DNA from: a virus
Length of the DNA stretch: 64,000 bases
Virus record (IMG/VR): IMGVR_UViG_3300010149_000010
Reading direction: 5' to 3' (one strand)
Made by a program: the position numbers and the translations under genes
Shown: positions 9,165 to 63,000 of the stretch, in pieces
Position numbering within the stretch: position 1 is the first letter of the stretch
Layout: each line of letters begins with the position of its first letter
Notes under the pieces: model-generated
Seen by the model: the letters and a program-made list of their open reading frames with translations, nothing else
Databases searched by the model: none
What the model was told of the DNA's origin: nothing

Positions 9165-12100
9165 TTAATCTCTCATCATTTTATTAATATAGGCATTACC
9201 TATCGGCCTTCTATTGTCGTTGACAGTCAGTGACGCCTGCCCTCCAGCCGATACAAAGTGCTTGCCCATAGTTTGAGCTGCAGAAAGGCTTGGAGCCTCT
9301 CCGTACATCTTAATTGAACGATTCAATGATACAGTACTCACTCCGCTATTGATAGGTCTTTCATAAAAATTATCAATCCCATTTATCTTACCTGGGCTTA
9401 CGTTTCCGTGCTCTCTACTAAAACTTTGTTGCAAAGCTCTATTGCTTAAACCTTGCCCCGCTTTTAAAGCTTCTTTAGAGATAGAATCGGAAAATTTACC
9501 TCCAGGTTCAAGCGAGCTGCTTGGCGAATTTGCTCCCACAGCATACGAAGCCAAAAGCGAACCTGCAATTACTCCAGCCAAACCCTTGCTCCTGCTAACG
9601 GTTTCGCTAAAAGCACTTCTAGCAGAATCTACTTTAGAAAAAATCGATTCTATTTCATCAAGCTCGCCAGTAATCACTCCACCTTCCATTGAAAAACCCT
9701 TGTTCATTAGTTGGAACAATTGCTGGCTGTTAAACCTAGAAGAACCTTCTAATTTTCTTCCAAGTGCCTTGTTAGATGTAAAATCGTTAAATCCATATTT
9801 TTTTACATTTCTAGCCATAACATCAAAAGAGTCAAATATTTCTTGGACATTTAAATTTACGTCTCCTAGAGCTTCTCTAAACTTTTTCGTTGCATTACCT
9901 TCTCCTAAGTTATGGAACTCAATTGACTTTGCATCTATTTTTAAGTTGCCTTCAGCATTTTCCAACAAAGTTCCTTTGAATATCTTGTCCTGGAAAAAGC
10001 TTTTTAGAGCATCGCCCTTACCCGTATTAAAAGATGTTTTTAAAGCACTTAGGTATTCCCTAGAAATGTTAGCAGCAATCGGAAGCTTCTTGCCTTTAAT
10101 TCCTAAAACTTCTTGAGCCACTGATATTAAAGCTGCTCCACTTTGAATTTTTTTAAATTGAGCTGCAAAATCTCCACTAGTATCATCTGCAGCAGACTGT
10201 GCAAGTCCCAGCATTCCTGCTTTAACTTGCACATCTAGACCACCAATTCCCTTTACTATTTGTTCTTTCTGGTACTCGTCTACAATGGACTGAGCAACTG
10301 TCATTTGTGAGGCTCCCATGCGCTTCCCTAGCTTCTCTACACCTTCCCCAAGCAGGCTCATGTTAGTTAGAAACTCTGCACCATAAGTGTACATTTTTTT
10401 TGCGTCGATCCCTTGGTTTTTCATTTTATTTTTTAAAGTCTTGTCTACATCAAAAAATACCTGATAAGGATCCGCGTCAAAGTCTCCAATGCCAAACCTT
10501 GCAAAATCCATGCGCCCAGAAAAGGCAGTCCTTTTACCTGTATTTACATCTTCTATTTGCATGCTCATGTCTATTTGAGGAAACCTTACAGTCCCTCCTC
10601 CATGCTCGCCTTTCTCTAAGTGCTTGTTAAGCATATCTTTATATATACCACCATAAGCACTAACTTGCTCTTCGTTTAGTTTTCCGCTTTCTTTCAACAA
10701 TCTTAGTTCAGCCAAATCGGCACCTGTTTTAACTTCTCTTCCCAAAACATCGTCTAGGATTTTTAAAGGCCTGCTTATACCAGGCGCTCTTGGCTGAGTT
10801 TTGTTTCCTTGAAAATCTGTATCTAAACCGCTTACTTCAGGAGCGTTGTTCATTATTTTTTCATCTATATCTTTTATAGTTATATCACCTTCATTTTCTA
10901 TTGATTCTTTTTGAGCATTTTCTATTAATTGTTTTTGAGCTTTGATTTCGTCTTCTTCTTGATTTAATCTTTCTATTTCTTCGAAAAGCGCTTTTCTGCG
11001 TTTTTGTTTACCCCTAAAAGGGTTTTTTTCCATTTCGTTAAGATCGCGCGTTGCTCTTTGTGAAATTTCTCTTTGTGAATAGAAATTTGACGCTCTATCT
11101 TTCACCTCTGACATTTTTACTTCTTCTCCTCTAGCTTCTCTTCTGATTACATCGTAGGCGTCTATCTTTGTAGCTTGAGGCGCAAGAGTGTAATTGCTGT
11201 TTTCATTAAGGACTTTTCTTACCCTTCCTCTGTTTCGAGAACTTATCCTCTCTAAGAACGGTTCGAGACTTTCTTCTGTAACCATGCCTTTTTTTCGTGC
11301 CGCTATAATTTCTTCAGAAACTGCTGGCCCCACTCCTTTTAGCTGCATCAATTCCTCTTTTGTTGCTAAGTTTAAATTCACAACACTCGCTCCACCACTT
11401 CTTACTTCTTTTATCCTCTGCGATATTTGCTCCCTATTCATATTGATTTTGCTCCGACCCTTGTTGTCAGGTTGAGCTAGTTCTTCTAAAGGGTTCAATT
11501 TACTCCCCGTTTGATTTCCATACTCATCAAGTAAGGGTACGTTTTTTCCAGAAAACTTTCTTGCTAAAAACTCGTTTTCAAAGCCTTCCAAGCTTCTCAA
11601 GTGAGTTTTATTGTCAGCATTAAAACCAAAAAAAGGTCCCATTTCGTTTATGAATCCAATAGCCTCTTTTTTATTTTCGAAATGCCTAAAAGAAGATGTC
11701 AACCTACCTTCATCTACACTCCTTCCATATGCTCCAACGTCTTCTATAGTTTCTGTGAACTCTCTTTCTAAACTACGTCTTATGTTTCCTTCAGAGACAT
11801 CACCGCCTCCAAGAACAGCCCTTCCGTAAACGTCTTTATTTTTATCAGCAGCGGTAATTTGTTCGTTAATTTTATGTATTTTATTATCAATAATTTTTGC
11901 TTCTTCATTAAGACCTTTAAGTTCCTCTGCCTTTTTGCTATATTCTGTAGTTTTTGTTGAACCAGCTTTATTAAACTTCTTAATTTGTTCAATTATCGGC
12001 TCGGCCTTTTTTTTTATTTTTGAAAACTGATCTTGCAAAAGAGCTACTTTACTATGACGTTTAGCTTGTGCTGCACCTACGTCTTCAGCAAGAAGGTTCA

Positions 12101-15100
12101 AATTACTTTCTTGAGGTAGGTTTCCTGAAAATACACCATGCCGCCTCTCTATAAACCCTCCAGGTTCTTCTAAAATCTTTGAAGCATCTCGCCTTTTGTT
12201 TAAAAGGGACTCCCTTTCAGCAACAAACTTTTCGTAACCTTCTTCACCTTTTATACTGGCTCTTTCTTGTTTGATTTCTTGCCTTTTGGCATAAACTTCT
12301 TGCCCCCTAGTATAAACAGCATCTCTTTCATCAAGTTTTTCTAAACCAGTAACCCCTTTTAATATTTCCGAAACTTTATCTTGGTTTAATGATTTTCTAA
12401 TCTTTTTAAGATGCTCTACATAATCCGGTGTAAACTCTTCTCCTTTTTCTACATTTCTTAAAAACTGTAGTGGTTTTAGCTCTTTTTCAAAATCGTATTG
12501 ATAAATACCCATGCTTGCAAAAATGTGTGAAAAACCTATGAGAGGATTTCTTTGTATCGTTCCAGAAATTCCTTCTTTTTTGCTTCGATGCATGCCAGTA
12601 AAAAAGGCTTCCAAAGTCTCTTCCATTATTTTGTTTGTTTCTTTTTTGGTAGAGACTTTACCTTGAGAAGCTAAATGTTTATTTATTGCTGATTCGTAGG
12701 TACCCATTCCATCTAGGAAAGCCTGTTGATCCATAAATGCAACATAGCCCATTTCTTTGTTTACCACTTCAGACAAAGAGTCTACAATTTGCTTTTGAAC
12801 ATTCAGATCATCGCTAAAGATTGTAGCTCCAACGCCTTTTTTTCCTAAAGTGAACCCACCTCCCATATAAGAGCCTGATCCTAAGATTTTACCACTTAGT
12901 GTACTCCTGATCGCTGTACCCGTTATTTTGCTTAATCTTTTTCTAACTTCAGTAAAGCCTGAAATTGATTTTTCGATTTCATCTTCATCAGTTCCAGCAT
13001 CCTTCAACGAAGATAAAGATGATAGCAAGTCTGTAATATTTCTTCCGTATTCAGCTTCTACTTTTATGACTTCATCACTCGACCTGATCTCATGGCCTAA
13101 AAACCCTTGAAAGGTATCTTCTCCTGGGAGAAATATTTCTTTTTTGCCTCCAGTAAATTCGTACAGCCTATCCAGCCCCTCTTTAGAGAGGCCCATTTTT
13201 TCTAAATCAAGTATGTTCCCTCCTTTCCTGGCAGACAGTTTTTCAACGACTTCTTTCTCTTTGCCTTGCCCAAGGTCTAAAAGTTCAGTTACCTCTTCTT
13301 CGGTTAGTTTACCAACATCGCTTAAACCTGATATCTGCTCTTTTATATTTGTTGCATCAAGCTTTCCAAGAGATTCTTGTGTCAGCTTCATTCCCATCAA
13401 GCCTCCAGCGCGACTTTCGAATCCTTCCATTCTGGTTATCATTGAAGAAACGTATCCCGTCGCTTCTTTTGAATCCATCCCCCAAAAGGATCTTAAAGAA
13501 GAATAAAGATAGTTCGCAAACCTTGGTTCAGCCTTAGCTACGCTTCTGCCCAGGTCTGTATGTGGAGTACCAACAGTTCCAAACGCAGCACCGATTACCA
13601 CACCTCTTTTTGCTGTCTCTTCGATTTTACTTAAATAGGGATCAACATCAACTACACCCGCGTCTTTTAAACCCGCAGCTATTTTTCTTTCAAAATATTC
13701 TAAGTTTAAACCAAACTTTTTATTGCTTGCTTGGTTTCTAGCATAAGACATTACCATTCCAAAATGATCAGCACTTATTCCTTCATCACCAGCCCTTTTT
13801 GCAATTGTTTGAAAGAACTTCCCTAAAGTTGAAGCGCTTTTTTGCTTTGCAGACACTTGGTCTACATTTGTTAGCGTGCTTTTAAAATCACCCAATTGGT
13901 TGTCATTTATTTCGGTAAGCAATTCATCTGCATTGTCTAAAGACCCCATACTAGTATTTAATGCTTTGTCCATTGCTGCTTCATCCAACCCGAGCATCTT
14001 CATACCTCCGTGTATCTGCGTACGCAGATACCCAGCAGACTTTCCCAATTGAGCTGTTGTGGTAAGCAAGGTGTTCTCTATCCTTCCCCCAAAACCGTCT
14101 TTATTGAAAAACACCTCTCCAATGTCACGAACACCCAACTCTTCCAGTTTCTTCAACATAGAAGATTCATTAATTGTAAGCGTTGTGTCTTTGGCTAAAG
14201 AAGAGAATAGTTTGCTATAATCAACGTCTTGCAACACTTGGCCTTTAAGATGGTAGCGGTCCCTTCCTGTTTCCATGCTTTTTTCAGAAAGCCCAAGCGT
14301 AAATCTTTTCATACCTTTGTGACGTTTGATGTGCACAATTCTGTCGTCTTGTTTTCCTAAAACAGCACGCCCTTCAGAATCTCCAAATTGTTTGAAAAAA
14401 TCATCAATATCGTAATCGTCACCATCAACGAGTGAACCTATAGTTAAAAACTTTCTGTTATTGTCTTTTGAAGCATTTAAAACTTCCGTCAATAACTTGC
14501 TCTGGTTAATACCTTCTTTGTTTATGGTTTTTGTATAACCTTTTTTAACCTGAATGGTGCCCCCCATATAACTCATCCCTTCACCAAGGCCTAATTGAGC
14601 AGCAGGGTTTTTTATTTTTTTTGCTCCGTGTTGTGCTTCTTCAAGTTTTTCAAAAATCATAATAGCGCCAAAGTTTACGCCTCTGATATTTTTAGATACT
14701 TCCTTATCACTGGTGATTCCAATCAATTCATTGCTTGCCCCAGATATTTTAATGTCTCCCTTTTTTCCAAAAGTAGCGTCTCTTTCAACACCTGCAAACC
14801 CTGCTGCTAATTCGGGTCTTCCGTAAACTTGACCAGCACGCGCTGTTTGAGGCACTAAACTGCGGTCCAGTCGCCCATACCTTTTCATCGCATTGAAGGC
14901 CGTTTTTGTTTTTGTTCCAGAATCATTCTCCAGTCGCTCAATATGACCTACTATCATTTCTCTTTTTAAATCAAATGGATCCTTAAATCTAGAAGTCAAA
15001 GTTTGCGAACCTGAAGTACCTCCATAAATTTCTGACTCATATTGAAGTATTTTTTTCGTTACTTGCTCCCTGTCTTTTTGTGCAAATTTTTCCAGTCCAG

Positions 15101-16352
15101 CAATTCTATGTATTGATGATTGAAAAGCTCGAGAATCTATAAGTGTAGACATCAAGTCTTTGTCGATTAAATTTATTTCTTTTCCACCATTAATTGTTCT
15201 GCTTGAATTCAATCCTTCAATCATTGTTCTTGGGGTCTCTATTGACATCGACCTAATATAGTCATTGTACTCATTTATATTTGTCACGCTAAAATTTTGA
15301 AAAGACTGTTTGTTTTCTTTTATCAATCCAAATAAATGATCTTCTAAGCTCATTGTAGCGTCTTTTAGCGCAGCTGCTGCCCCAGTCCCCTTTGGGGTTG
15401 CTAACTGATTCAAATCTAAACTAGGGAAAATTTTTGCAGCGTCTATTACACCCCCACTAGTAGTGTACCGTGTAGACATATTCTCCGTCCCTCTTATTAT
15501 TGTCATTCCAGATCTTGGGTCTTTAGCCAGGTCTAAAGCTACGTTTTGAAACCTCCCACTGCTATGCTCTACTCTCGCATAAGTAGACTTACCTTCACCT
15601 GGTCCATACTCTTCTAAAGATACTAATTGTATATTCTTTCCTGAAGCCATGGATTTAAGTTCCCCATATTTCTTCGTCGCTTTTCTACTCAGATCACTTG
15701 TCGATGCTGACTTCCACTCTACAGTGGAGGTTCCTTCTGTTGTGAAATCTTTGAAGGTGGTATTGAATTGGCCTTTTGTTTTCATCATTGAAGAGTGTCT
15801 TTTTTTGAATTCTTGCAACTTTGGACCGCTAGTACTTACACTACTTTTATAAAAATCAATAGCAGTCCGCATATCAACCTGTTCGATGTTTCCTGTTTCA
15901 ACACCTTGGTACAGTTTTTCTAACGATGCTTTTAGTGATCCCGAATCATCAATCATGCTTTCGCTAGCAGTATCAAAAAGTGCTGACAAAAAAGCCCTTG
16001 CTTCATTTGCGGAAGATGTTTCATTAAACATTCTTTCTAGGTTCTCACTACTTAAAATCTCCTCTTTAAAAGTTTTAAGTGCTACTTTCCTGCTTTCGTT
16101 TACAACACTCTTTAACCTTTCAGCATCTTTTCTAATTATGCTTCCTGCCCGACCTAACTCATTTTGCGAAGCAGAAGAGTTCTTTAAAGCCCCTAAGCTC
16201 TTCTTTACACCTGATGTTAAATTTACATTCTCGTTTAACAGGTAGGCTGTCCCAGCCACAGCAGCGGCTCCTATTACTGTGCGTCCAGTGTTTTTTATAT
16301 TCGACACTTCTTTATCTTTTTGCTGCTCATTTAATAGATTTATTAAAGACAT
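9165..16352 (-). CDS. 2395-aa tape-measure-locus protein, candidate virion (tail-delivered) two-barrel RNA polymerase with ComEA-like HhH insert
   Basis: GIGDFDADPY (10470-10484, D1957/D1959/D1961); QRNP (12543-12551); upstream GLGEGMSYM and KLFSSLAK; downstream KGIGGLD and AQEVLGIKGK; HhH VNLNLATKEELMQLKGVGPAVSEEIIAAR (about 11290-11382); lies between the tape measure and hub genes. Confidence 0.65.
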   Translation of the reverse strand: MSLINLLNEQQKDKEVSNIKNTGRTVIGAAAVAGTAYLLNENVNLTSGVKKSLGALKNSSASQNELGRAGSIIRKDAERLKSVVNESRKVALKTFKEEILSSENLERMFNETSSANEARAFLSALFDTASESMIDDSGSLKASLEKLYQGVETGNIEQVDMRTAIDFYKSSVSTSGPKLQEFKKRHSSMMKTKGQFNTTFKDFTTEGTSTVEWKSASTSDLSRKATKKYGELKSMASGKNIQLVSLEEYGPGEGKSTYARVEHSSGRFQNVALDLAKDPRSGMTIIRGTENMSTRYTTSGGVIDAAKIFPSLDLNQLATPKGTGAAAALKDATMSLEDHLFGLIKENKQSFQNFSVTNINEYNDYIRSMSIETPRTMIEGLNSSRTINGGKEINLIDKDLMSTLIDSRAFQSSIHRIAGLEKFAQKDREQVTKKILQYESEIYGGTSGSQTLTSRFKDPFDLKREMIVGHIERLENDSGTKTKTAFNAMKRYGRLDRSLVPQTARAGQVYGRPELAAGFAGVERDATFGKKGDIKISGASNELIGITSDKEVSKNIRGVNFGAIMIFEKLEEAQHGAKKIKNPAAQLGLGEGMSYMGGTIQVKKGYTKTINKEGINQSKLLTEVLNASKDNNRKFLTIGSLVDGDDYDIDDFFKQFGDSEGRAVLGKQDDRIVHIKRHKGMKRFTLGLSEKSMETGRDRYHLKGQVLQDVDYSKLFSSLAKDTTLTINESSMLKKLEELGVRDIGEVFFNKDGFGGRIENTLLTTTAQLGKSAGYLRTQIHGGMKMLGLDEAAMDKALNTSMGSLDNADELLTEINDNQLGDFKSTLTNVDQVSAKQKSASTLGKFFQTIAKRAGDEGISADHFGMVMSYARNQASNKKFGLNLEYFERKIAAGLKDAGVVDVDPYLSKIEETAKRGVVIGAAFGTVGTPHTDLGRSVAKAEPRFANYLYSSLRSFWGMDSKEATGYVSSMITRMEGFESRAGGLMGMKLTQESLGKLDATNIKEQISGLSDVGKLTEEEVTELLDLGQGKEKEVVEKLSARKGGNILDLEKMGLSKEGLDRLYEFTGGKKEIFLPGEDTFQGFLGHEIRSSDEVIKVEAEYGRNITDLLSSLSSLKDAGTDEDEIEKSISGFTEVRKRLSKITGTAIRSTLSGKILGSGSYMGGGFTLGKKGVGATIFSDDLNVQKQIVDSLSEVVNKEMGYVAFMDQQAFLDGMGTYESAINKHLASQGKVSTKKETNKIMEETLEAFFTGMHRSKKEGISGTIQRNPLIGFSHIFASMGIYQYDFEKELKPLQFLRNVEKGEEFTPDYVEHLKKIRKSLNQDKVSEILKGVTGLEKLDERDAVYTRGQEVYAKRQEIKQERASIKGEEGYEKFVAERESLLNKRRDASKILEEPGGFIERRHGVFSGNLPQESNLNLLAEDVGAAQAKRHSKVALLQDQFSKIKKKAEPIIEQIKKFNKAGSTKTTEYSKKAEELKGLNEEAKIIDNKIHKINEQITAADKNKDVYGRAVLGGGDVSEGNIRRSLEREFTETIEDVGAYGRSVDEGRLTSSFRHFENKKEAIGFINEMGPFFGFNADNKTHLRSLEGFENEFLARKFSGKNVPLLDEYGNQTGSKLNPLEELAQPDNKGRSKINMNREQISQRIKEVRSGGASVVNLNLATKEELMQLKGVGPAVSEEIIAARKKGMVTEESLEPFLERISSRNRGRVRKVLNENSNYTLAPQATKIDAYDVIRREARGEEVKMSEVKDRASNFYSQREISQRATRDLNEMEKNPFRGKQKRRKALFEEIERLNQEEDEIKAQKQLIENAQKESIENEGDITIKDIDEKIMNNAPEVSGLDTDFQGNKTQPRAPGISRPLKILDDVLGREVKTGADLAELRLLKESGKLNEEQVSAYGGIYKDMLNKHLEKGEHGGGTVRFPQIDMSMQIEDVNTGKRTAFSGRMDFARFGIGDFDADPYQVFFDVDKTLKNKMKNQGIDAKKMYTYGAEFLTNMSLLGEGVEKLGKRMGASQMTVAQSIVDEYQKEQIVKGIGGLDVQVKAGMLGLAQSAADDTSGDFAAQFKKIQSGAALISVAQEVLGIKGKKLPIAANISREYLSALKTSFNTGKGDALKSFFQDKIFKGTLLENAEGNLKIDAKSIEFHNLGEGNATKKFREALGDVNLNVQEIFDSFDVMARNVKKYGFNDFTSNKALGRKLEGSSRFNSQQLFQLMNKGFSMEGGVITGELDEIESIFSKVDSARSAFSETVSRSKGLAGVIAGSLLASYAVGANSPSSSLEPGGKFSDSISKEALKAGQGLSNRALQQSFSREHGNVSPGKINGIDNFYERPINSGVSTVSLNRSIKMYGEAPSLSAAQTMGKHFVSAGGQASLTVNDNRRPIGNAYINKMMRD

Positions 16353-26435: not shown

Positions 26436-26459
26436 TATTCAATCTCCTTTGTTTTTAAA

Positions 26460-55105: not shown

Positions 55106-55862
55106 CTAAAAGTATCTCTTCTGCGCCTTCTGGCGCTTCTATAGAATACAGAGCCTCTCTCAAACGAGATATCTCTTCTAGTACTCTCGAGTTATTATTA
55201 GACTCGCCCATCTTAATCATGAACTCTGCTTTGGTCTTTCTAGTTTGAACCAACTTGTCCAACCACTTCTCACGTCGCTTCTCCAATCTATCAATCATTT
55301 CTATGATTGGGTGTAGCTTAGTTGTTTCAGCTCTATCTCCATTCTCATTAAAACCAGTAATATCTGTCATCATAAAATCACGTCCATCACCTTTTTTATC
55401 GCCTTGAGATAAAACCATTAAGCTGCGGTTTTTATACAAGTCTATTAAAGCTAACTCATTCACTATAGACATTTCTACAGGATCATTAGGATCAACATCT
55501 AAGTGCTGCAAGTAGTCTATAATTTTTTGTTCTACAAAAAACTTTTCCATGACGCATTCGCGTCCAACAGGATAATTAGATATCGGCCCAAAGTCCAGAT
55601 TCCCTTCCACGTCCATATCCGGTATAGGGCAACGTTTAACGAACGGACATTTTTCAGGGCCTAGGCAGACTAAAGGCGCAGAAGCATGCACACCACTTTT
55701 TATTGCGCTAACAGACTGTTTGACGCGCGTTAATTTTTTACTGTCTAATCTTGCTAGATAACTGGAATACTCATCACTAGATTTTGTTATAGTTTCGAAA
55801 AATTTGCCTTGGCGCAATTCTTTTGAATCATCTTTTTCAATTTTTACAAGTGAGTCTTTCAT
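55098..55862 (-). CDS. Probable terminase small subunit (254 aa)
   Basis: First gene of the packaging operon; Cys cluster then helical region ending HPIIEMIDRLEKRREKWLDKLVQTR; RBS AAGGA. Confidence 0.55.
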   Translation of the reverse strand: MKDSLVKIEKDDSKELRQGKFFETITKSSDEYSSYLARLDSKKLTRVKQSVSAIKSGVHASAPLVCLGPEKCPFVKRCPIPDMDVEGNLDFGPISNYPVGRECVMEKFFVEQKIIDYLQHLDVDPNDPVEMSIVNELALIDLYKNRSLMVLSQGDKKGDGRDFMMTDITGFNENGDRAETTKLHPIIEMIDRLEKRREKWLDKLVQTRKTKAEFMIKMGESNNNSRVLEEISRLREALYSIEAPEGAEEILLDD

Positions 55863-56184
55863 GCAATCTTTTCCTTATATTTTATGTTTAATAATAGCAT
55901 ATTCCATTTTCTGGTTTAAAGGCAACGCCAGAATAGTATTTGATATGCATTTGACACCATTCAGGTGGTGGCTTTACACCAGCTTGATAACCAACTACCT
56001 CATGCTTTGGTCCTGGTGGCATTTAGTAGCAAGGTATAAAATATGGGGAGCTATGGCAATAACTTATTGTTTGCATGCTATCATTGAGTTAAGTTTGAAT
56101 TCTTACTTTTACAGCCCGCCCGCCATGAAACAGATTGCAGGTATCTTTTTACTGCTATCTGGCACTTATTTAATAATGAGGTGA
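55861..56184 (+). CDS. Small four-helix membrane protein (107 aa), SMR/DMT-like
   Basis: About four hydrophobic segments, C-terminal KQIAGIFLLLSGTYLI; start re-assigned to ATG 55861 (in frame with the track ORF). Confidence 0.5.
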   Translation: MQSFPYILCLIIAYSIFWFKGNARIVFDMHLTPFRWWLYTSLITNYLMLWSWWHLVARYKIWGAMAITYCLHAIIELSLNSYFYSPPAMKQIAGIFLLLSGTYLIMR

Positions 56185-56187
56185 TAC

Positions 56188-56556
56188 ATGAATTCTACAG
56201 TAACCCTACCCAAAACCAAAAATTATCAACATGTCAGACACTGGGACTTGGTTGACATTTGGAAAGACTCAGCTTCGCTTCAACCAATAGAAGTTAAGGT
56301 AGATACGCTTTGGAAGGAATATGAAGGGATTTATTGTTGGCTGGAAGTTGGTGACAAAGTTACTCATGCTCATTTTTTGCACCATCTAGACAGGATAATG
56401 AGCGCTGACCTAAGTTACCCTATAATACTCTCTGAAGAAAACTACATTATGGATGGCGTGCATAGGCTTATGAAATGTAAGTACCTAGGTATAACGTCTA
56501 TTCATTGTTTAAAATTTAAAAAAGACCCTGTGTCAAAAGGAAAAATTAATGCTTAA
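56188..56556 (+). CDS. ParB-N/sulfiredoxin-like domain protein (122 aa)
   Basis: ADLSYPIIL...IMDGVHRL...LG signature; RBS GAGGT. Confidence 0.7.
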   Translation: MNSTVTLPKTKNYQHVRHWDLVDIWKDSASLQPIEVKVDTLWKEYEGIYCWLEVGDKVTHAHFLHHLDRIMSADLSYPIILSEENYIMDGVHRLMKCKYLGITSIHCLKFKKDPVSKGKINA

Positions 56557-56758
56557 AAGGCAGAAAATATCTAAACTACCAATACAAGAGATAAACCAAC
56601 ATATCTCAGCATACGAAAGGATGCTTGATTTTTATCAAGATTATTTAAATACTAAAGGTGATTACATTTACGTCAATGAGAGAGTCCAGTATTTAAATGG
56701 TAAATTAGCAGAATGTCTAATTGCGCGAGAAATCCATATAGAAGAAAACACCCAATAG
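56549..56758 (+). CDS. Hypothetical protein (69 aa)
   Basis: Overlaps the upstream gene end; RBS AAGGA. Confidence 0.55.
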   Translation: MLKRQKISKLPIQEINQHISAYERMLDFYQDYLNTKGDYIYVNERVQYLNGKLAECLIAREIHIEENTQ

Positions 56759-56896
56759 GGCCAGCCTTAGTTTAAAATTAAAAAATTTAAATTTGAGCTT
56801 TTTAATATTAGCCGAAATAAAACAGGCACCTTTTCTATAAAAGCAAAAGATTGATTGATGAATCGGGGGAGAGTAGTTGGGTGATGTGTACGAATG

Positions 56897-56954
56897 ATAT
56901 AAATTATATTTAGAAAAGGCCCTATGGTTGGATCGAAATATATAAATTATATTT
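56897..56954. repeat. 15-bp direct repeat ATATAAATTATATTT x2 (near-palindromic)
   Basis: Copies at 56897-56911 and 56940-56954 in the largest non-coding gap. Confidence 0.8.
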
Positions 56955-57097
56955 GGGGGTATTTATATTAATGGTGTTTTTGCACTCTTAGAGTTGCGAG
57001 CCCACCCCCGTTTGAGCATGGGTTAAGCTTCCCCCCTACACATCAGTGATAAATCACACACCTACATCACTGATTTTTGCCCCAGAAGGACATTATT

Positions 57098-57568
57098 ATG
57101 GATACTTGGCAAATCATCGCCATCATCTTCACAACCCTTCACCTTGCTTTCTTTTCACAATACTTTATCTTGGGATGCTCTATCTTAGAGCATATTGAGA
57201 ATAAGAAAATTGAAGCAGGTAACCGAGCATACGCTGCTTGGAAGCTTGGGTTTATCGCCCCTCGCAACCTTGCTTATATAAATGCAATCGCCTCTCAGCC
57301 TTTCTACCTCTTTGAGGTGGCAAAGTGGGAGAACCTTCAGGTCTATCATCATGTTGATGGAACCTGGTATGACATTGATTCTGGTAACTTAAGGGGTTAC
57401 GTCAAGATCAATAGGGAAGGCCAGATTGGTTTCAGTAAAAATCGGCATCTCGTAGAGAGTAAGTGTCGTATCATGCTCAGAGTTAGTGAGGGTGGGCTTT
57501 GCTATATCTTGGATCCTTCACTCAGAAAGAGTGAGAGAAACAGGTGGCATGAGCGCTGGTCCATCTAA
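57098..57568 (+). CDS. Hypothetical early membrane protein (156 aa)
   Basis: RBS GAAGGA before ATG 57098; N-terminal TM WQIIAIIFTTLHLAFFSQYFILG. Confidence 0.65.
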   Translation: MDTWQIIAIIFTTLHLAFFSQYFILGCSILEHIENKKIEAGNRAYAAWKLGFIAPRNLAYINAIASQPFYLFEVAKWENLQVYHHVDGTWYDIDSGNLRGYVKINREGQIGFSKNRHLVESKCRIMLRVSEGGLCYILDPSLRKSERNRWHERWSI

Positions 57569-57599
57569 ATTTTATCCTAGAAAAGTGCTATGTTTTCGG

Positions 57600-57622
57600 A
57601 AGCCCCCTTCGGGGCTTTTTTT
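57600..57622 (+). terminator. Intrinsic terminator
   Basis: AAGCCCC-CTTC-GGGGCTT followed by a T run. Confidence 0.85.
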
Positions 57623-57660
57623 AATTTACCCTACTTCAATGGATGCTTAAGCACATCCAT
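57617..57660 (+). promoter_or_regulatory. Repeated AATTT-N10-AATGG-hairpin element, copy 1 (candidate phage promoter)
   Basis: TTTTTTAATTT ACCCTACTTC A ATGGATG-CTTAAGCA-CATCCAT. Confidence 0.55.
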
Positions 57661-57732
57661 CTCTCATGTTGAGGGTAAAGCGCACCAGTGCAATGCTTCT
57701 ACGCAATTCTTCGTTGTCGGAAGGACATCATC

Positions 57733-59022
57733 ATGCGTAACTTATCTATCCTTGCCTTTATTGGCTTCCTATTCTTATTCACTGGCTGCGGCGTTGTGCG
57801 CAATGTGGCCTCAACCCTCAACCACGAGATCTGCGAAAAGAGCTACAACAAGTTTGTATGCCCAACCGTATCTGAACCAGCACATACACCCCTCTGCTAT
57901 GGGGTAAGTGTACGCACCACTGCCGGAGTCGATAACTTTGCCCATACCGATCAGGGGCCATTTTGCAAGAAACTCCAAAATGAGGCTACGCGTAAAGCCT
58001 TCCAATCAAAGCCAGGGACAACCTGCGCCATCAAAGGCAAGGGTAAATTTCAGAAGGTTGTATGTGCCGGCTTCCATCACGCTGGCGGCATCTTACTCAT
58101 CCTCTTGACGCTTCTTTGGGGGCGTGGTTTACGCGATCTTATGGTCGCTAGTGTAGAGAATGAAGATACCCGTCGCCCCTTTGATGGAATGTGGGAGGGG
58201 TGCAGAGTGATGATTATCGCCTGCATTGGGGCTGTGGTTTTACTAGCGTTAACCACAAACGCTTATAGCCAGCCTTGTGTCAACAAGGCTTATACAATAA
58301 GTCAACCGTCTGACATCTTGGAGTGCGAGATGACCCTCTCCACTCCAGAGAGCAACATGAGGTATACTTTAACGGCCCTAGATTTGGCTCAAGATAAAGT
58401 CTGCAATATACACCATCCGAACATGGGCATTGTAGCTTGCTACGACCTCTATGACGAGGCCCGCGCCCTCTTTAAGGCGAGGGCAGCCTTGTTGATGCTG
58501 AAAGAAGCGACACGAATCGTTGATATCAATGAAAGCGTCACGACCCCCACGCCATGTGGGGCAAATAAGCACTTGTGTGCTTCAGTGGGATGGGATAAGG
58601 CAAGTGGAATCGGCCTATTCTTTTCCTTCATCATTTCTTTACTCCTCTCTCGTCGCAAGACGAGAGAGGAGTGGTTCGGTTTTGAAACACTCCTGTACAG
58701 GGAGACGAGGAACGCCGTTTGGGCAATCGAGGACGAGCTATACAAAGCTCGTTGGATCGAGCGTGTGATTGAGGCTGCAATCACTCTCGCAGCCTTCTCT
58801 TTTGGGGGGCTCGTATTAGGGATTACATCCACCTTCTTGGCCCAGAAGAGATACGGGTGGGCGAGCATCTTCTGTGTGTTCGTATCAGTTCTCCTCTGGG
58901 GCTCTGCCCTGGAATGGATCCTTTTTGTACTCAAAGCATTAACGTGCTTCCTCTCAAACACTGAGGAGGGGTTCCGTTTCGTTAGGTGGGCGCTCCATCA
59001 GCGATGGAAACGTCAACTGTAA
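57733..59022 (+). CDS. Cys-rich multi-pass membrane lipoprotein (429 aa)
   Basis: RBS GAAGGA before ATG 57733; MRNLSILAFIGFLFLFTG-C lipobox; two Cys-rich regions each followed by TM segments. Confidence 0.65.
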   Translation: MRNLSILAFIGFLFLFTGCGVVRNVASTLNHEICEKSYNKFVCPTVSEPAHTPLCYGVSVRTTAGVDNFAHTDQGPFCKKLQNEATRKAFQSKPGTTCAIKGKGKFQKVVCAGFHHAGGILLILLTLLWGRGLRDLMVASVENEDTRRPFDGMWEGCRVMIIACIGAVVLLALTTNAYSQPCVNKAYTISQPSDILECEMTLSTPESNMRYTLTALDLAQDKVCNIHHPNMGIVACYDLYDEARALFKARAALLMLKEATRIVDINESVTTPTPCGANKHLCASVGWDKASGIGLFFSFIISLLLSRRKTREEWFGFETLLYRETRNAVWAIEDELYKARWIERVIEAAITLAAFSFGGLVLGITSTFLAQKRYGWASIFCVFVSVLLWGSALEWILFVLKALTCFLSNTEEGFRFVRWALHQRWKRQL

Positions 59023-59056
59023 GTAAAACAATCAAAAAAGTATTTATGTTTTTTGG

Positions 59057-59080
59057 AGCTCCCTTTTGGGAGCTTTTTTT
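59057..59080 (+). terminator. Intrinsic terminator
   Basis: AGCTCCC-TTTT-GGGAGCT followed by T6. Confidence 0.85.
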
Positions 59081-59115
59081 AATTTACTCCTTTTAATGGG
59101 GGTTTAACATCCTCC
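59075..59115 (+). promoter_or_regulatory. Repeated AATTT-N9-AATGG-hairpin element, copy 2
   Basis: TTTTTTAATTT ACTCCTTTT AAT GGGGG-TTTAACAT-CCTCC. Confidence 0.5.
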
Positions 59116-59175
59116 TTTGTAATTCTGCATAAAAAAAAGTGTAACCTAAATGTAGCCAAATACAGGAGTATTACT

Positions 59176-59814
59176 ATGGCTTATAAAATCTTTAACAACA
59201 CAGGGCGAGCCCTGTGCAGCGAAAGAGAGAATGGTTTTATTGTTCTCTTCTCAGAAAAAAGAGATTTCAAAGACTACCAATTCAACGACCTCGACGGAAA
59301 AGCGATAGTAGAGGCGATCTGGAGTCCAAGCGGTTTTGTTGACGCTCACTATTTCTTCTTCAGCAAAGTCTGGTTTTCTGCAGACAAGGTGAGATCATTC
59401 AACGATCTGTGCATCGTAAAGCGTGATCCAGCGTACCCAGAGCGCTTCATCGAAACACCTGTCAAGGAACTTAAAGAGAGCGTATTCCAGGCAATTCTTT
59501 CATGTTCATTTGACGGTGTTTCTGATGACGAGCTTCAAGACCTTGCTAATCTTCGATCCACATTTGAAGATGATCTTCGTCGCGCAAGAGACGAGGTAGA
59601 GAGATTCGCGCATTCGTGGAGATGCAGGGATGGGAGCGTTCTCCCAGCACACGATCAAAAGGTCATTATCCAGCTCCGTGAAGAAGAAAAGAAGAGGGTC
59701 GACCCATCACTGTTGCTCCATTCCTATCACCACCTTATGATGGAGTTCAGAAGAGAGCTCCATCGCAGAGGACTAATTCTGAGAATGGGGAACATCGTTC
59801 CTTTTCAATATTGA
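59176..59814 (+). CDS. Hypothetical early protein (212 aa)
   Basis: RBS CAGGAG; bounded by terminators on both sides. Confidence 0.7.
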   Translation: MAYKIFNNTGRALCSERENGFIVLFSEKRDFKDYQFNDLDGKAIVEAIWSPSGFVDAHYFFFSKVWFSADKVRSFNDLCIVKRDPAYPERFIETPVKELKESVFQAILSCSFDGVSDDELQDLANLRSTFEDDLRRARDEVERFAHSWRCRDGSVLPAHDQKVIIQLREEEKKRVDPSLLLHSYHHLMMEFRRELHRRGLILRMGNIVPFQY

Positions 59815-59853
59815 TCGCTAAAAGAGCCAACTGAAGATTAAGAAACACCTAAA

Positions 59854-59891
59854 GCCCTGGAGTGCACCACCGCACTTCGGGGCAGTTTTTT
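59854..59891 (+). terminator. Intrinsic terminator
   Basis: GCCCTGGAGTGC-ACCACC-GCACTTCGGGGC (12-bp stem, 2 G-U) then AG and T6. Confidence 0.8.
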
Positions 59892-59931
59892 AATTTGTTT
59901 CCTTTAATGGAGAGATTATAGCAACTCTCCA
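59886..59931 (+). promoter_or_regulatory. Repeated AATTT-N9-AATGG-hairpin element, copy 3
   Basis: TTTTTTAATTT GTTTCCTTT AA TGGAGAG-ATTATAGCAA-CTCTCCA. Confidence 0.55.
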
Positions 59932-60002
59932 GCCTTCAGAATAGAAGGTGCCATTAGGCTTCGTGGTATACACACAACCCCCTACAGAAAGGGACTGAGA
60001 CA

Positions 60003-63000
60003 ATGCGTAAAGCAATTTTCTCACTTTTCCTTGGCCTGCTGTGGGCAGCTAGCTGTTATTCAGTCTATGTTGCTCCTCTAGCATTGCCTGCGTCCGCCGT
60101 GGATGCAGCGCCAATTGTTCATCCTTCAGCAGAGGTCGCAAAACCTCTTGCTACCAACCGCACTGACAACGCAACTGCTGAGATTGACCATCTTCGCAGT
60201 ACTACTATTAACAGTGGAAGCTCTACCCCTAGTCAAGGTACCTTCCCCATTAATAACCCTAACGCATTACGTCCTCGTCGTAGAGGTATTATGCGTCGCA
60301 GAAAGCTGAAGTCACGAAAGGGCAACCGCCTTGTTAGTGATGCCTTTATCAAATTTGTCTTTGGTTACCACCGTGTAACTTACATGAGTGGCAATTGGCT
60401 GTGTTACGAAGAGACGCCTTACACAGAGGCAGACTTCAAAGTGAGTAAACCAGCTAAAGCTCGTAAGAAAGCGAAGAAATCCTGGCGTCAGCTAAAGGGT
60501 GAGGCAACACGTCTTTACCAGAAGGCTGCAAAGCTTCGTAAGCGCAATCCAGAATATCCGCCTGCAATAGCCTGTGCGGTGTTTGCCAAAGCACAAAAAC
60601 TTCATCATAAAGCCAATGATATGAAGAAGGCATTAAAAGAGGCTCAACCGACAGCACGTCAACAGCGTTCATTCCGACGCTCAGTGTTGAGAGCGGAAGC
60701 CAAAACTTGCGAGCAGTTTATCAAAGCTGAGTTAGTGAGCAATGTGGACCAAGCTAAAGAGCTGATTCAAAAGGTCCTCAGTGGTGACACTAATGGAGCT
60801 GCATTGAGACTATTACAAAAATCTCAATTAGGGCGCATTTACGTAAAATATGGTATCCTCCAGGCGCCGATGAAAGAGGAAGAAGTCGAGAGACCTACGA
60901 ACCCAGTAGTCAGACACATCAAAGTAGCAGAAACCCCTGCAAGGGTATGGACCCCATTGATGCGTGCAGCGATTATAGTTATTGCACCACTCATGCTAGG
61001 TATGGATGCGGATGTAGGTACCGTCGCAGAAGTCACTTATGCTAGTGCTTCTGGTGGTATTTTAATGATGACCCTGAAGAACGTCTTGAATACTCCAGCC
61101 CGTAAGCGTGAAGCAGCGCAAGACGGGTACAATCGTTACGCAGAGCAGTCGATCAAAGCTGCAAAGGGTAGTGAATGGGATGTTTTCTCCCTCATGCGAT
61201 TCAGTCGCAGTGGTAAAGGTGCGCCGATCACCAACGGCAAAGCCCACGATACTGACAAGCAGAAGGGTCGTGCTGTCCGTATTATTCAAGATAGCATCGG
61301 CGGGGCGTACTGCCCAAAGGTAAAGTCATTCGCCAGGATGCTTGGAATTGAACTCGGCGTGGACAACTGTCTCCGTTATGAAGTTGACGACCAAATGGAT
61401 GAGGTACTAAAAGCTGACGTCGTCGAGATCTTAATGGCAGCCAGCTTTGTTATTCTTTGTGACGGCTTTGCTGTTCACAAGAGCATTGCTCGCCCCTTCA
61501 TTGAGTACGGGGAGACTATGTTCGGCAATGCTGTAGCTGTGCGCTCTTACTTCCGCAGTCTAATCACCACACCAGAGCTCTACACGGTCAACCAGGACTT
61601 ACCTATCTTCTTGGGTGACCTCGATGAGCTTATGGGATGGGCGGAGAACGATGGTGGCGCTGTGCATACCAATCGCCTGAGCGTGAGCATGCAGTTCCGA
61701 GGGATCGCGAAAGTGCTTGAGGCGAAGTACCGCATCTTGTCCAAGGGCATCACAACTTCTGCTAAGGTTATTGCTGACATCACTGATGACGTCGACAAGC
61801 CTGTCTTCGTCAACTATGAAGGCGATGAGGAAGGCCACATCAAGGGTGAGGTTCGCCTAAGCAAAAAGGTTGACGAGTGCATCCGTGTTGCAGTAGAGGA
61901 AGAATTCAACGCTCTGCATGCTGTTAACACGGCGACTAAAGAGCAGCTTTGCTTAGTTGCAGGAATTGGCCCTAAGACCGCTGAAAAGATCGTTGAAGCT
62001 CGTAATGCTGCAGGTGGGGCATTCGCTGACATGGATGCGTTCTACAACGTGTCAAGGCGCCTTGATCCCAGCAACCCGGACGCGCTTCGCGTCTTGCGTT
62101 GGTCTTTTGGCCACAAGGGCCGTGTTTACTCAGTGGGCCTATTCCTTGACAAGGGTTGTCTCAAGGGAGAAGACAAGAATGCTTGGGACTGGAACAAGCT
62201 CAACTTCTTCGGCGTCAACGGCCAAAATGTCGACTTCTGGTCTATCGCTATCGACCAGATTGGCGGCAAGATCAGCTTGGGCTGGCAGGTAGTCCAGTTA
62301 TTAGACGCTGACTTCATCGGCGGTTTGTTCAAGAACACTGATGGTAGTCTTGGAATCGCGGCCCAAAAGTTAGCGCGCCAGATCGACAATGCAATCGAGC
62401 AGGAACACCCTCTTTGTAAGCATCTCCTTGATGCAATTGAAGACAAGGGCGGTGACATTGAAAACTTGATGTCAGCCGTAAAAGCTATTTCCGTGCTTCA
62501 GGGCCTCGGGAAGACCGCCTCTAAGCGCATCAGCAATGGTCTCGGTGCGAAGGCAGGATCTTACTATGTTCAGATGATCGACATGGGTGGCGACTGGGTA
62601 ATTATCAAAACACCCAAGGCCAAGGATGGCAAGGGTTACAAGCGATGGGCTACTTGCTTCTTCGGTCGTACACCGAACCAGGGGCACGAGACCGTCCGCG
62701 CACCTATGGCGCTATCACCAACTTATGTCGGTGGATTCTTGAGGGATTATCTTGATAATGGCTTTGACGCTGTAGAGAAGCACGGCAAACAAGCCGTAAA
62801 ATTCGTTATGGGTCTCAATGATGCTTGTGGTCATGATACCGATGTAGTACGTCTTCGCTGCCGTGCGATCTTGACGATGCTCCCAGCTGTAATTGATGGA
62901 ATTGCTTTAGTCGACTCAACTCTACAACAAAAGGTATGCGGCGACAATGATGGCGACCGTAACATGATCAGCTTCGACAAGATGCTCGTTGCAATCGCCA

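What the first reader, a model, noticed from the sequence alone, without database searches (positions are those of the whole stretch)
57600..59931. Three copies of a terminator-fused hairpin element in front of early genes
Each intergenic gap reads terminator hairpin, TTTTTTAATTT, 9-10 pyrimidine-rich nt, AATGG, then a 5-7 bp stem. The stem sequence varies but pairing is kept (ATGGATG/CATCCAT, GGGGG/CCTCC, TGGAGAG/CTCTCCA), around a conserved TTA..(G)CA loop (CTTAAGCA, TTTAACAT, ATTATAGCAA). Compensatory variation argues for a functional structure. N4 virion RNAP uses hairpin promoters, so these are candidate promoters for the virion RNAP; a transcript-stabilising 5' stem is an alternative. 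Weaker variants occur before the first early gene (AATGGTG-TTTTTG-CAC at 56970, ATGGG-TTAAGCTT-CCC at 57018).
Basis: partly seen in the sequence, partly recalled or inferred. Interest (0 to 1): 0.78.

Follow-up and report, generated by a model that had tools for sequence, protein, structure and literature searches.

The report
Phage pre-early terminator–promoter cassettes
Three short, highly conserved DNA cassettes (a terminator, a T-rich signal ending in AAT|GG, then a hairpin) separate fast-changing genes next to a phage's own RNA polymerase gene, and are most likely promoters for a phage-encoded polymerase that also serve as swap points for gene exchange.

Summary
Three co-oriented intergenic cassettes (57599-57660, 59055-59115, 59854-59931) each read: intrinsic terminator, TTTTTTAATTT, 9-10 pyrimidine-rich nt, AATGG, then a 5-7 bp hairpin. 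Chance predicts none.

The window is an uncultured marine contractile-tailed phage, not N4-like. Relatives carry the same cassettes only in a ~10-kb island at the head of the rightward gene arm. Cassette 3 is 87-89% identical between phages whose downstream protein is only 27-31% identical, and the genes between cassettes differ between genomes.

Across 26 distinct cassettes in seven relatives, the constant core is a T-rich tract ending TTTAAY|G(G/A). A hairpin starts at that G far more often than by chance. In hairpin-less copies an SD and start codon mostly follow 24-50 nt later. No sigma-70 -10 box fits.

The gene after cassette 3 folds as a two-barrel RNA polymerase (tested here).

Best reading (~0.55): terminator-promoter cassettes for a phage-encoded polymerase, probably the virion one, starting at G and giving mRNAs a 5'-terminal hairpin. 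They resemble phage P23-45's pre-early promoter scheme in function and T4 PeSLs in evolution. The N4-type DNA-hairpin mechanism is not supported.

Other reports of this scan, on this same genome only, already mention these cassettes.

The parts
57599..57617 (+). Cassette E1: intrinsic terminator hairpin (GAAGCCCC-CTTC-GGGGCTT) ending gene g1
57616..57642 (+). Cassette E1: conserved T-rich motif TTTTTTTAATTT-N10-AATGG (putative promoter; putative start at G 57641)
57639..57660 (+). Cassette E1: 7-bp hairpin ATGGATG / CATCCAT, loop CTTAAGCA (putative 5'-terminal mRNA hairpin)
   Evidence: orthologues in G006 and L097
59055..59074 (+). Cassette E2: intrinsic terminator ending gene g2
59074..59099 (+). 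Cassette E2: conserved motif TTTTTTTAATTT-N9-AATGG
59098..59115 (+). Cassette E2: 5-bp hairpin GGGGG / CCTCC with central G.U, loop TTTAACAT
   Evidence: same stem in G001 copies A and C and in L190 copy 1
59854..59883 (+). Cassette E3: terminator GCCCTGGAGTGC-ACCACC-GCACTTCGGGGC ending gene g3
59886..59910 (+). Cassette E3: conserved motif TTTTTTAATTT-N9-AATGG
59908..59948 (+). Cassette E3: 7-bp hairpin TGGAGAG / CTCTCCA (59908-59931) plus a second small hairpin CCTTC/GAAGG (59933-59948) in the leader of the RNA polymerase gene
56935..57012 (+). P0: conserved block before the first island gene. AT-rich repeat ATATAAATTATATTT (56940-56954, also at 56897-56911), TATTTATATTAATGG, then hairpin 56973-57006 ending in AGCCCACCCC
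57098..57568 (+). g1, 156-aa ORF of unknown function (present in G006; replaced by other genes in G001 and L097)
57733..59022 (+). g2, 429-aa ORF with a lipoprotein-like N-terminus, mosaic between relatives
59176..59814 (+). g3, 212-aa ORF flanked by cassettes E2 and E3. Absent from G006 and G001, present in L190
60003..63998 (+). 5' part of a ~2175-aa single-chain two-barrel RNA polymerase gene (GDNDGD motif at aa 980-985), runs off the window
9165..16352 (-). 2395-aa ORF among the tail genes with RFPQ...GDFDAD (aa 1923-1961). Candidate virion RNA polymerase; checked here only at motif level
   Evidence: lead e1-5684254

Best explanation
Each element is a composite terminator-promoter cassette that makes the gene behind it its own transcription unit.

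1. The GC hairpin plus T-run ends the upstream transcript.
2. The T-rich motif ending TTTAAT|GG is a promoter that is not of the sigma-70 type. A phage-encoded two-barrel RNA polymerase reads it. The most likely enzyme is the candidate virion polymerase encoded among the tail genes, because one cassette drives the gene of the second, non-virion polymerase.
3. Transcription starts at or next to the G of AAT|GG, so the variable stem forms a hairpin at the very 5' end of the mRNA, probably protecting it from 5'-end-dependent decay.
4. The ~75-100-nt cassettes are much better conserved than the genes they flank, so they also act as homology patches through which pre-early genes are gained, lost and swapped.

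Shown here: the anatomy, conservation, distribution, hairpin enrichment, lack of a sigma-70 fit, and the polymerase fold of the downstream gene.

Inferred: promoter activity, the start site, which polymerase reads it, and the stabilising role of the hairpin.
For: 1. Real and non-random. Three copies against none expected; fold z-scores -3.4 to -4.0.

2. Conserved in relatives and confined to one island. G001 (complete, 161.8 kb, portal 88% identical) has 4 copies within ~10 kb and none elsewhere. G006, L097, L190 and L199 carry orthologues or paralogues.

3. Conserved beyond the coding sequence.
- Past position 56067, window against G001 leaves only two conserved islands: P0 (91%) and E3 (91.8%).
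- The E3 cassette is 89% identical to L199 and 87% to G001, while the downstream proteins are 27% and 31% identical.

4. Family-wide core. 26 distinct cassettes from seven genomes share a GC hairpin, a 0-12 nt C-rich spacer, and a T-rich tract ending TTTAAY then G(G/A). In four L070 copies the T-tract is separated from the hairpin, so it is not merely a terminator U-tract.

5. Position relative to genes. Among the hairpin-less and weak-stem copies of L070, 7 of 9 have an SD and start codon 24-50 nt after that G. G1_D, L073_1 and L074_2 have theirs at about +28.

6. Hairpin enrichment. A stem of at least 5, 6 or 7 bp starts within -3..+2 of the G in 14, 10 and 7 of 26 cassettes. The rates at 3177 background sites are 16%, 6.5% and 2.2% (P about 1e-5 to 1e-6). 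At least nine different stem sequences occupy this one position.

7. Not sigma-70. No A at -11 in any register shared by the family. The consensus scan finds no sigma-70-like site in the cassettes. No Sigma70_r2 domain is found in G001.

8. A phage polymerase is at hand.
- The ORF behind E3 has an invariant GDNDGD.
- With a 26-sequence alignment it folds at pLDDT 81.5.
- Foldseek matches it to QDE-1 (E 3e-6), RDR2, the non-virion RNA polymerases of phage P23-45 (gp64, PDB entry titled 'Phage P32 gp64') and its relative P74 (gp62), and the crAss phi14:2 virion RNA polymerase.
- The 2395-aa tail-module ORF keeps RFPQ-(30 aa)-GDFDAD.

9. Precedents.
- P23-45's tape-measure-fused virion polymerase uses a strongly conserved AT-rich promoter before pre-early genes, including the gene of its non-virion polymerase (PMC10770324).
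- phiKZ late promoters are a short TATG whose G is +1 (PMC4666361).

10. Gene shuffling at cassettes.
- g3 lies between E2 and E3 in the window and in L190 but is missing from G006.
- L190 has an extra cassette-flanked gene.
- g1 is replaced in G001 and L097.
Against: - There are no transcript data, so the start site and promoter activity are inferred from anatomy alone.
- The T-run directly follows a canonical terminator in the window's own copies. Part of the conserved motif could therefore be termination signal.
- P23-45 also has a conserved 26-nt motif at the termination sites of its virion polymerase, so a conserved ~26-nt block is not by itself a promoter.
- In compact phage DNA any intergenic element lies near a start codon.
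- The hairpin is missing in several family members (G1_D, L070_6, L074_2).
- Some relatives have no cassettes at all. G002, L197 and L198 show hammerhead-like CUGAUGAG elements in the same gaps.
- In L065 and G002 the polymerase gene has no cassette directly in front of it.
- The virion polymerase candidate was not verified structurally here, and hhalign between the two giant ORFs found only the shared HhH insert.
Confidence: 0.55

Rival explanations
1. The conserved block is a specialised termination or attenuation signal for a phage RNA polymerase: a hairpin plus an extended T-rich tract. All island genes would then be transcribed from the single upstream region P0, with graded read-through. 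The second hairpin would be incidental, or a back-up terminator or pause element.
For: - The motif begins as the U-tract of a canonical terminator in all three window copies.
- P23-45 has a conserved 26-nt motif at the termination sites of its virion polymerase near the genome end.
- P0 is a separate, very conserved AT-rich block at the head of the island.
Against: - Conservation runs 20-25 nt beyond the hairpin to a fixed AAY|G.
- In L070 the T-tract is 5-12 nt away from the hairpin in four copies.
- Copies next to P0 (L065_0, L073_0, L074_0) have no GC hairpin directly before the T-tract.
- Hairpins start exactly at the G.
- SD and start codons follow at 24-50 nt.
Confidence: 0.15
2. An RNA-level processing and stability module. 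A polycistronic transcript from P0 is cut (RNase E or III type) in the AU-rich linker between the two hairpins. This leaves a 3' hairpin on the upstream mRNA and a 5' hairpin on the downstream one.
For: - The layout is two hairpins flanking a single-stranded U/A-rich stretch.
- The G.U pair in the E2-type stem points to RNA-level pairing.
- Relatives without cassettes carry hammerhead-like self-cleaving motifs in the same gaps. Their cleavage would also leave a hairpin at the new 5' end.
Against: - A strong intrinsic terminator would stop most transcripts before the site.
- Host RNases do not need a 26-nt conserved sequence with a fixed AAY|G.
- Hairpin-less copies exist.
Confidence: 0.12
3. 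Ordinary host sigma-70-type early promoters fused to terminators, that is, true PeSLs. TAATTT would be the -10 box, preceded by a T-tract.
For: - TAATTT fits TAnnnT in the window's lineage.
- The PeSL architecture and its evolutionary behaviour are the same (PMC2839356, PMC4122927).
Against: - There is no -35, because a GC terminator stem occupies that place.
- The consensus scan finds nothing there.
- The TAATTT box is absent from L070 and L073 cassettes, which keep only T-rich...TTTAAY|G.
- The shared TTTAAT lacks the essential A at -11.
Confidence: 0.07
4. N4-type promoter: supercoil-extruded DNA hairpins recognised by an injected virion polymerase.
For: An inverted repeat is present, and a virion polymerase candidate exists.
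Against: - No T7/N4-like polymerase was found.
- Loops of 8-10 nt disfavour extrusion.
- The template-strand version of the E2-type stem has a central A.C mismatch.
- The hairpin is absent from several copies.
- In N4 the hairpin lies upstream of +1, has a GC-rich centre at -11, and is read on the template strand (PMC4496689).
Confidence: 0.02
5. Selfish or purely recombinational repeat with no regulatory role. The cassettes would be conserved only because they spread by gene conversion.
For: - Three near-identical ~45-nt terminator parts lie within 1.6 kb of L190.
- Cassettes coincide with gene-content break points.
Against: - Orientation is strictly with the genes.
- Position is always intergenic, between a stop codon and the next SD.
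- The core persists across lineages that have otherwise diverged to ~55% identity in the neighbouring 254-aa protein.
Confidence: 0.05

Closest known systems
Pre-early promoter system of Thermus phage P23-45: tape-measure-fused virion RNAP gp96 and non-virion RNAP gp64 (Chaban et al. 2024, PMC10770324)
   Same: - A two-barrel polymerase gene lies inside a small island of short genes.
- A strongly conserved A/T-rich motif stands before those genes, including the polymerase gene.
- A candidate second polymerase is encoded in the tail module.
- Conserved ~26-nt signals lie at unit boundaries.
   Different: - Different phage lineage: contractile tail, 0305phi8-36-like portal.
- The motifs cannot be compared, because the P23-45 logo is not in the text held.
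- Here the promoter-like motif is fused to a canonical hairpin terminator and is usually followed by a hairpin.
- The virion status of the 2395-aa protein is untested.
PeSL (promoter-early stem-loop) cassettes of T4-type phages (Arbiol et al. 2010, PMC2839356; Comeau et al. 2014, PMC4122927)
   Same: - Composite terminator/promoter motifs of ~100 bp.
- Clustered in a hyperplastic region and flanking ORFans.
- Better conserved than the genes.
- Gene indels are bounded by cassettes.
   Different: - PeSL promoters match the sigma-70 consensus with -35 and -10 boxes. These do not.
- There are only 3-4 per genome (up to 9 in one relative), against ~50 PeSLs.
- Mini-circle formation was not examined.
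phiKZ non-virion RNAP late promoters (TATG with G = +1; Yakunina et al. 2015, PMC4666361)
   Same: A short conserved motif abuts or overlaps the start site, (A/T)ATG with initiation at G, and is read by a non-canonical two-barrel polymerase without -35/-10 geometry.
   Different: - phiKZ's enzyme is multisubunit.
- It has no T-rich upstream tract, terminator fusion or 5' hairpin.
- The start site here is only inferred.
N4 virion RNAP hairpin promoters (review PMC4496689)
   Same: An inverted repeat with variable stem sequence lies at early-gene control elements, and an injected polymerase is postulated.
   Different: - N4 uses a T7-like enzyme and a template-strand DNA hairpin upstream of +1.
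- Its stem is 5-7 bp around a GC-rich centre at -11.
- It depends on gyrase and SSB.
- None of the testable features is met here.
5'-terminal stem-loop mRNA stabilisers (E. coli ompA leader, T7 phi10 leader; from general knowledge, not checked in the library)
   Same: The hairpin begins at, or within 1-2 nt of, the presumed 5' end of the mRNA. Stem sequence is free, but pairing is kept.
   Different: No half-life data exist, the 5' end is not mapped, and some cassettes lack the hairpin.

Membership tests
N4-type virion-RNAP hairpin promoter | Phage encodes a giant T7-like (single-subunit) virion RNA polymerase | tested here: not met
   - The 3053-aa ORF carries Amidase_2 and an endolysin-type PHROG.
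- PF00940 is absent from the complete relative G001 (weak test, because its control genomes gave no signal either).
- The polymerase that is present is of the two-barrel type.
N4-type virion-RNAP hairpin promoter | 5-7 bp stem around a GC-rich centre at -11, formed on the template strand upstream of +1 (PMC4496689) | tested here: not met
   - Loops are 8-10 nt and AT-rich.
- The E2-type stem becomes A.C-mismatched on the template strand.
- The hairpin lies 3' of the conserved motif.
- The hairpin is absent in G1_D, L070_6 and L074_2.
PeSL (T4-type promoter-early stem-loop) | Stem-loop terminator/attenuator fused to a promoter in one ~100-bp intergenic cassette | tested here: met
   Terminators are confirmed. 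A conserved promoter-like motif follows directly. Promoter activity itself is inferred, not shown.
PeSL (T4-type promoter-early stem-loop) | Promoter matches the host sigma-70 consensus (-35, -10, AT-rich UP region) | tested here: not met
   - No sigma-70-like site is found in the cassettes.
- A terminator stem fills the -35 position.
- The family core TTTAAY lacks A at -11.
PeSL (T4-type promoter-early stem-loop) | Cassettes flank variable ORFans and bound indels or replacements between related genomes | tested here: met
   - g3 is present or absent between cassettes.
- L190 has an extra cassette-flanked gene.
- g1 is replaced in some relatives.
- The cassette is 87-89% identical against 27-31% for the downstream protein.
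P23-45-type pre-early promoter of a tail-associated virion two-barrel RNAP | Conserved A/T-rich motif before a small set of genes that includes the non-virion RNAP gene | tested here: met
   - Cassette E3 lies directly before a gene shown here to fold as a two-barrel RNAP.
- Copies are confined to a ~10-kb island in the complete relative.
P23-45-type pre-early promoter of a tail-associated virion two-barrel RNAP | A virion-packaged two-barrel RNAP encoded in the tail or tape-measure region | tested here: inconclusive
   - The 2395-aa ORF 9165-16352 keeps RFPQ...GDFDAD in W and G001.
- It has no sequence hit to PDB or to phages.
- Presence in the virion cannot be tested with these tools.
P23-45-type pre-early promoter of a tail-associated virion two-barrel RNAP | Mapped transcription start sites and polymerase occupancy at the motif | not testable with these tools
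   This needs cappable-seq, ChIP or in vitro transcription.
Rho-independent (intrinsic) terminator | GC-rich hairpin immediately followed by a T-run, after a stop codon and co-oriented with the gene | tested here: met
   The stems are 57598-57619, 59055-59076 and 59854-59883, each with a T-run. The first stem lies 30-40 nt after the stop codons at 57568, 59022 and 59814.
Known RNA families (Rfam 15) | Covariance-model match at or near the gathering score | tested here: not met
   Window 55000-64000 gives only chance-level hits with E > 3.

The most novel reading that the evidence does not exclude
The cassettes define the first predicted promoter class for a new family of giant single-chain two-barrel phage RNA polymerases in contractile-tailed marine phages.

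- A tail-borne virion polymerase would start at the G of TTTAAT|GG on entering DNA.
- Every pre-early mRNA, including that of the second, membrane-anchored polymerase, would be born with a 5'-terminal hairpin.
- Sister lineages that lack the cassettes would reach the same end state (a hairpin at the mRNA 5' end) by hammerhead-type self-cleavage.
- The cassettes would double as portable recombination modules that shuffle host-takeover genes.
Probability: 0.3. Interest if true: 0.8.

Novelty: new variant of a known kind. Interest (0 to 1): 0.6.

Why it matters
Promoters of single-chain two-barrel phage polymerases are almost unknown. The YonO study left its promoter sequence undetermined (PMC5467207).

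This gives a short, well-delimited candidate promoter with a predicted start site and dozens of natural variants. Synthetic templates and recombinant enzyme could test it directly, even though the phage is uncultured.

It also extends the PeSL idea beyond T4-type phages and beyond host-polymerase promoters: regulatory cassettes serving as the joints of modular gene exchange. Finally, it provides a marker for finding pre-early 'host-takeover' islands in metagenomic phage contigs.

Tried and rejected
- Mini-ORF or leaderless-start idea (the ATG inside AATGG followed by TAA/TAG in the loops): rejected. Relatives have AACG, AGCG, AGTG and AATGC at this place.
- Sigma-54 reading (GG-N10-GC): the spacing is inconsistent between copies (read).
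- Bacteroidetes-type -7 box: rejected, because the genes have clear SD sequences and no -33 element fits.
- Rfam: no family matches the cassettes.
- blastn and tblastn against cultured phages: no match for the region, the polymerase or the 2395-aa ORF.
- Searches against PDB sequences (the 2395-aa ORF, the G006 polymerase orthologue, and a polymerase profile): only the HhH insert matched.
- hhalign between the two giant ORFs: only the HhH insert aligned.
- First AlphaFold run, with a 5-sequence alignment: unusable, pLDDT 31.5. It was repeated with 26 sequences.
- Covariance model of the hairpin: not built. MAFFT could not put stems of different length in register, so I used an anchored hairpin-enrichment test instead.
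- Collection scans with the full motif returned mostly chance hits. Only 2 of 28 viral hits were genuine. Of 119 metagenome hits, 2 were clearly genuine (L097, L190) and one (L170) was uncertain.
- No whole genome is held for the window, so genome-wide distribution was judged on the complete relative G001.
- G001's 'direct terminal repeat' is only a ~44-nt assembly overlap, so the distance of the island from a physical genome end is unknown.
- Co-occurrence of cassettes with the tail-module polymerase could not be tested, because the cassette-less relatives are fragments lacking that region.


Full report
**What is there**

The window is an uncultured phage with a contractile tail.
- Its portal is 35% identical to that of Bacillus phage 0305phi8-36.
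- It has hits to major head protein, tail sheath and large terminase.
- Genes 3-55862 run leftward. At about 55.8 kb a rightward arm begins.
- GC content rises from ~0.38 to 0.47-0.51 beyond 58 kb.

- a canonical intrinsic terminator;
- TTTTTT(T)AATTT;
- 9-10 pyrimidine-rich nt;
- AATGG;
- a 5-7 bp hairpin whose 5' arm starts inside AATGG.

The bipartite motif occurs three times where none is expected. nhmmer finds no further copy in the 64 kb. The two-hairpin folds are well beyond shuffles, and the terminator scan picks up all three terminators. No Rfam family matches.

**Relatives**

A portal search gave the complete 161.8-kb relative G001 (portal 88% identical).
- It has three full cassettes and one hairpin-less copy (TTTTAGTGG, 29 nt before a start codon).
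- All four lie within ~10 kb at the head of its rightward arm, and there are none elsewhere.

Beyond window position 56067, nucleotide similarity to G001 survives in only two places: P0 (56935-57012, 91%) and cassette E3 (59860-59955, 91.8%).

More relatives were found by motif and protein searches.
- G006 has orthologues of E1 and E3 with a single different gene between them.
- L097 has P0, then a different small gene, then E1.
- L190 has three cassettes that share one ~45-nt terminator. They flank the g3 homologue and an extra gene.
- L199 has an E3 cassette that is 89% identical over 103 nt, yet its downstream protein is only 27% identical beyond the first 85 residues.

All-against-all protein comparison confirms that the genes between cassettes are replaced or mosaic.

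**The family-wide core**

Loci found through the conserved 254-aa neighbour gene reach lineages down to 55% identity. Their early arms carry 3 (L065), 9 (L070), 3 (L073) and 4 (L074) co-oriented cassettes.

What persists across all of them is:
- a GC hairpin;
- a 0-12 nt C-rich spacer;
- a T-rich tract ending TTTAAY;
- then G(G/A).

The AATTT box and the ATG are lineage-specific. This rules out a mini-ORF.

In four L070 copies the T-tract is detached from the hairpin, so it is more than a terminator U-tract. Seven of nine L070 cassettes have an SD and start codon 24-50 nt after the G.

Among 26 distinct cassettes, a stem starts within -3..+2 of that G as follows:

| Stem length | Cassettes (of 26) | Background (3177 sites) |
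|---|---|---|
| at least 5 bp | 14 | 16% |
| at least 6 bp | 10 | 6.5% |
| at least 7 bp | 7 | 2.2% |

The enrichment is P about 1e-5 to 1e-6. At least nine unrelated stem sequences occupy this one position. Orthologues keep identical stems, so the 'compensatory variation' is between paralogues.

P0 has the same logic without a terminator. It reads AT-rich repeats, TATTTATATTAATGG, then a longer hairpin with some covariation.

**Which polymerase**

No register shared by the family gives a TAnnnT -10 box, and the shared TTTAAT lacks A at -11. The sigma-70 scan finds nothing in the cassettes, and G001 has no Sigma70_r2 domain.

Notes from this scan suggested two phage polymerases. I tested this myself.
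- The ORF behind E3 has an invariant GDNDGD.
- A first shallow model failed.
- Using 26 homologues from a library search, the AlphaFold model reached pLDDT 81.5.
- Foldseek matched it to QDE-1 (E 3e-6), RDR2, the non-virion RNA polymerases of phage P23-45 (gp64, PDB entry titled 'Phage P32 gp64') and its relative P74 (gp62), and the crAss phi14:2 virion polymerase.

So E3 precedes a two-barrel RNA polymerase gene.

The 2395-aa ORF among the tail genes keeps RFPQ-(30 aa)-GDFDAD in W and G001. This resembles the RxP...NADFDGD signature of the beta-prime subunit, a comparison I make from memory. I could not fold it.

The 3053-aa ORF is a lysin-bearing tail protein, not a polymerase.

**Mechanism**

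All cassettes share one motif, and one of them drives the polymerase gene itself. The enzyme that reads them must therefore be present before that gene is expressed. It is either an injected virion enzyme or the host enzyme, and the motif does not fit the host type.

This is the logic shown experimentally for P23-45. There a tape-measure-fused virion polymerase uses a strongly conserved AT-rich promoter at pre-early genes, including the gene of the non-virion polymerase. A separate conserved 26-nt motif marks its terminators (PMC10770324).

A start at the G of (A/T)ATG has a precedent in phiKZ late promoters (PMC4666361). Starting there would put the variable stem at the very 5' end of each mRNA.

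The G.U pair in the GGGGG/CCUCC stems recurs in W_E2, G1_A, G1_C and L190_1. It argues for pairing in RNA (or the non-template strand) and against a template-strand DNA hairpin as in N4 (PMC4496689).

I put this reading at about 0.55. The main rivals are:
- a dedicated terminator or attenuator signal (0.15);
- an RNA processing module (0.12);
- a host-type promoter (0.07).

**Evolutionary behaviour**

The cassettes behave like PeSLs of T4-type phages. They are composite terminator/promoter motifs that flank ORFans, are better conserved than the genes, and bound indels (PMC2839356, PMC4122927). They fail the defining sigma-70 criterion, so they are an analogue rather than a member.

**Limits**

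- There are no expression data.
- The virion polymerase is unverified.
- No whole genome is held for the window.
- Physical genome ends are unknown.
- Some related lineages (G002, L197, L198) lack the cassettes and show hammerhead-like CUGAUGAG elements in the same gaps.
- Other reports of this scan, on this same genome only, already mention 'conserved regulatory cassettes' around the polymerase gene.

Noticed in passing
window 58639-58674: A perfect 16-bp inverted repeat (TTACTCCTCTCTCGTC-GCAA-GACGAGAGAGGAGTGG) followed by TTCGGTTTT lies inside the 429-aa g2 reading frame. It may be an internal terminator or attenuator, or a recombination scar.
   Followed up: no
window 56897-56911 and 56940-56954: Two direct copies of ATATAAATTATATTT lie 43 nt apart, just upstream of the conserved P0 block. 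The second copy is conserved in G001, G006 and L063. They could be an operator or part of a distinct AT-rich promoter.
   Followed up: partly
L027:15964-16121, L027:17658-18239, L028:4427-4605 (G002); L197:246-403 and 1501-1976: Relatives without the T-rich cassettes carry GUC + hairpin + CUGAUGAG... elements in the equivalent intergenic gaps. One fits a type III hammerhead by hand and scores 24.8 bits against Rfam Hammerhead_3, below the gathering score. Cleavage would leave a hairpin at the new 5' end.
   Followed up: partly
L025:17626-18741 (G001, minus strand): A 371-aa protein matches phrog_1211 (PurZ-type adenylosuccinate synthetase, E 1.7e-56). This hints that this phage group may replace adenine by 2-aminoadenine in its DNA, which would bear on how A/T-rich promoters melt.
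   Followed up: no
G001 (g1rc 150218-153411), G006 26485-28329, G002 (g2part 25690-28300): An ORF-poor 2-3 kb stretch lies downstream of the polymerase gene. It has GC-rich hairpins, tRNA genes and a repeated TGACGAGACG motif. It lies beyond the window's end and is covered by another report of this scan (e1-5684277).
   Followed up: partly
window 57733-57800 and 60003-60070: Both g2 (MRNLSILAFIGFLFLFTGC...) and the RNA polymerase (MRKAIFSLFLGLLWAASC...) start with lipoprotein-like signal sequences. The polymerase N-terminus is the only part of the protein that stays ~50% identical in L199.
   Followed up: partly
L077:3668-6736 (minus strand), L024:3306-4925 and 5953-7407 (G001): The relative encodes a 1022-aa collagen-repeat protein and a DNA polymerase III alpha split into pieces, one with an intein-like segment.
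   Followed up: no
L190:1418-1476, 2273-2348, 2974-3050: Three cassettes within 1.6 kb share an almost identical 45-nt terminator (GCCCTGGAGTGCACC(AC)CGCACTYYGGGGC) but have three different downstream stems. This makes an ideal substrate for unequal recombination.
   Followed up: partly
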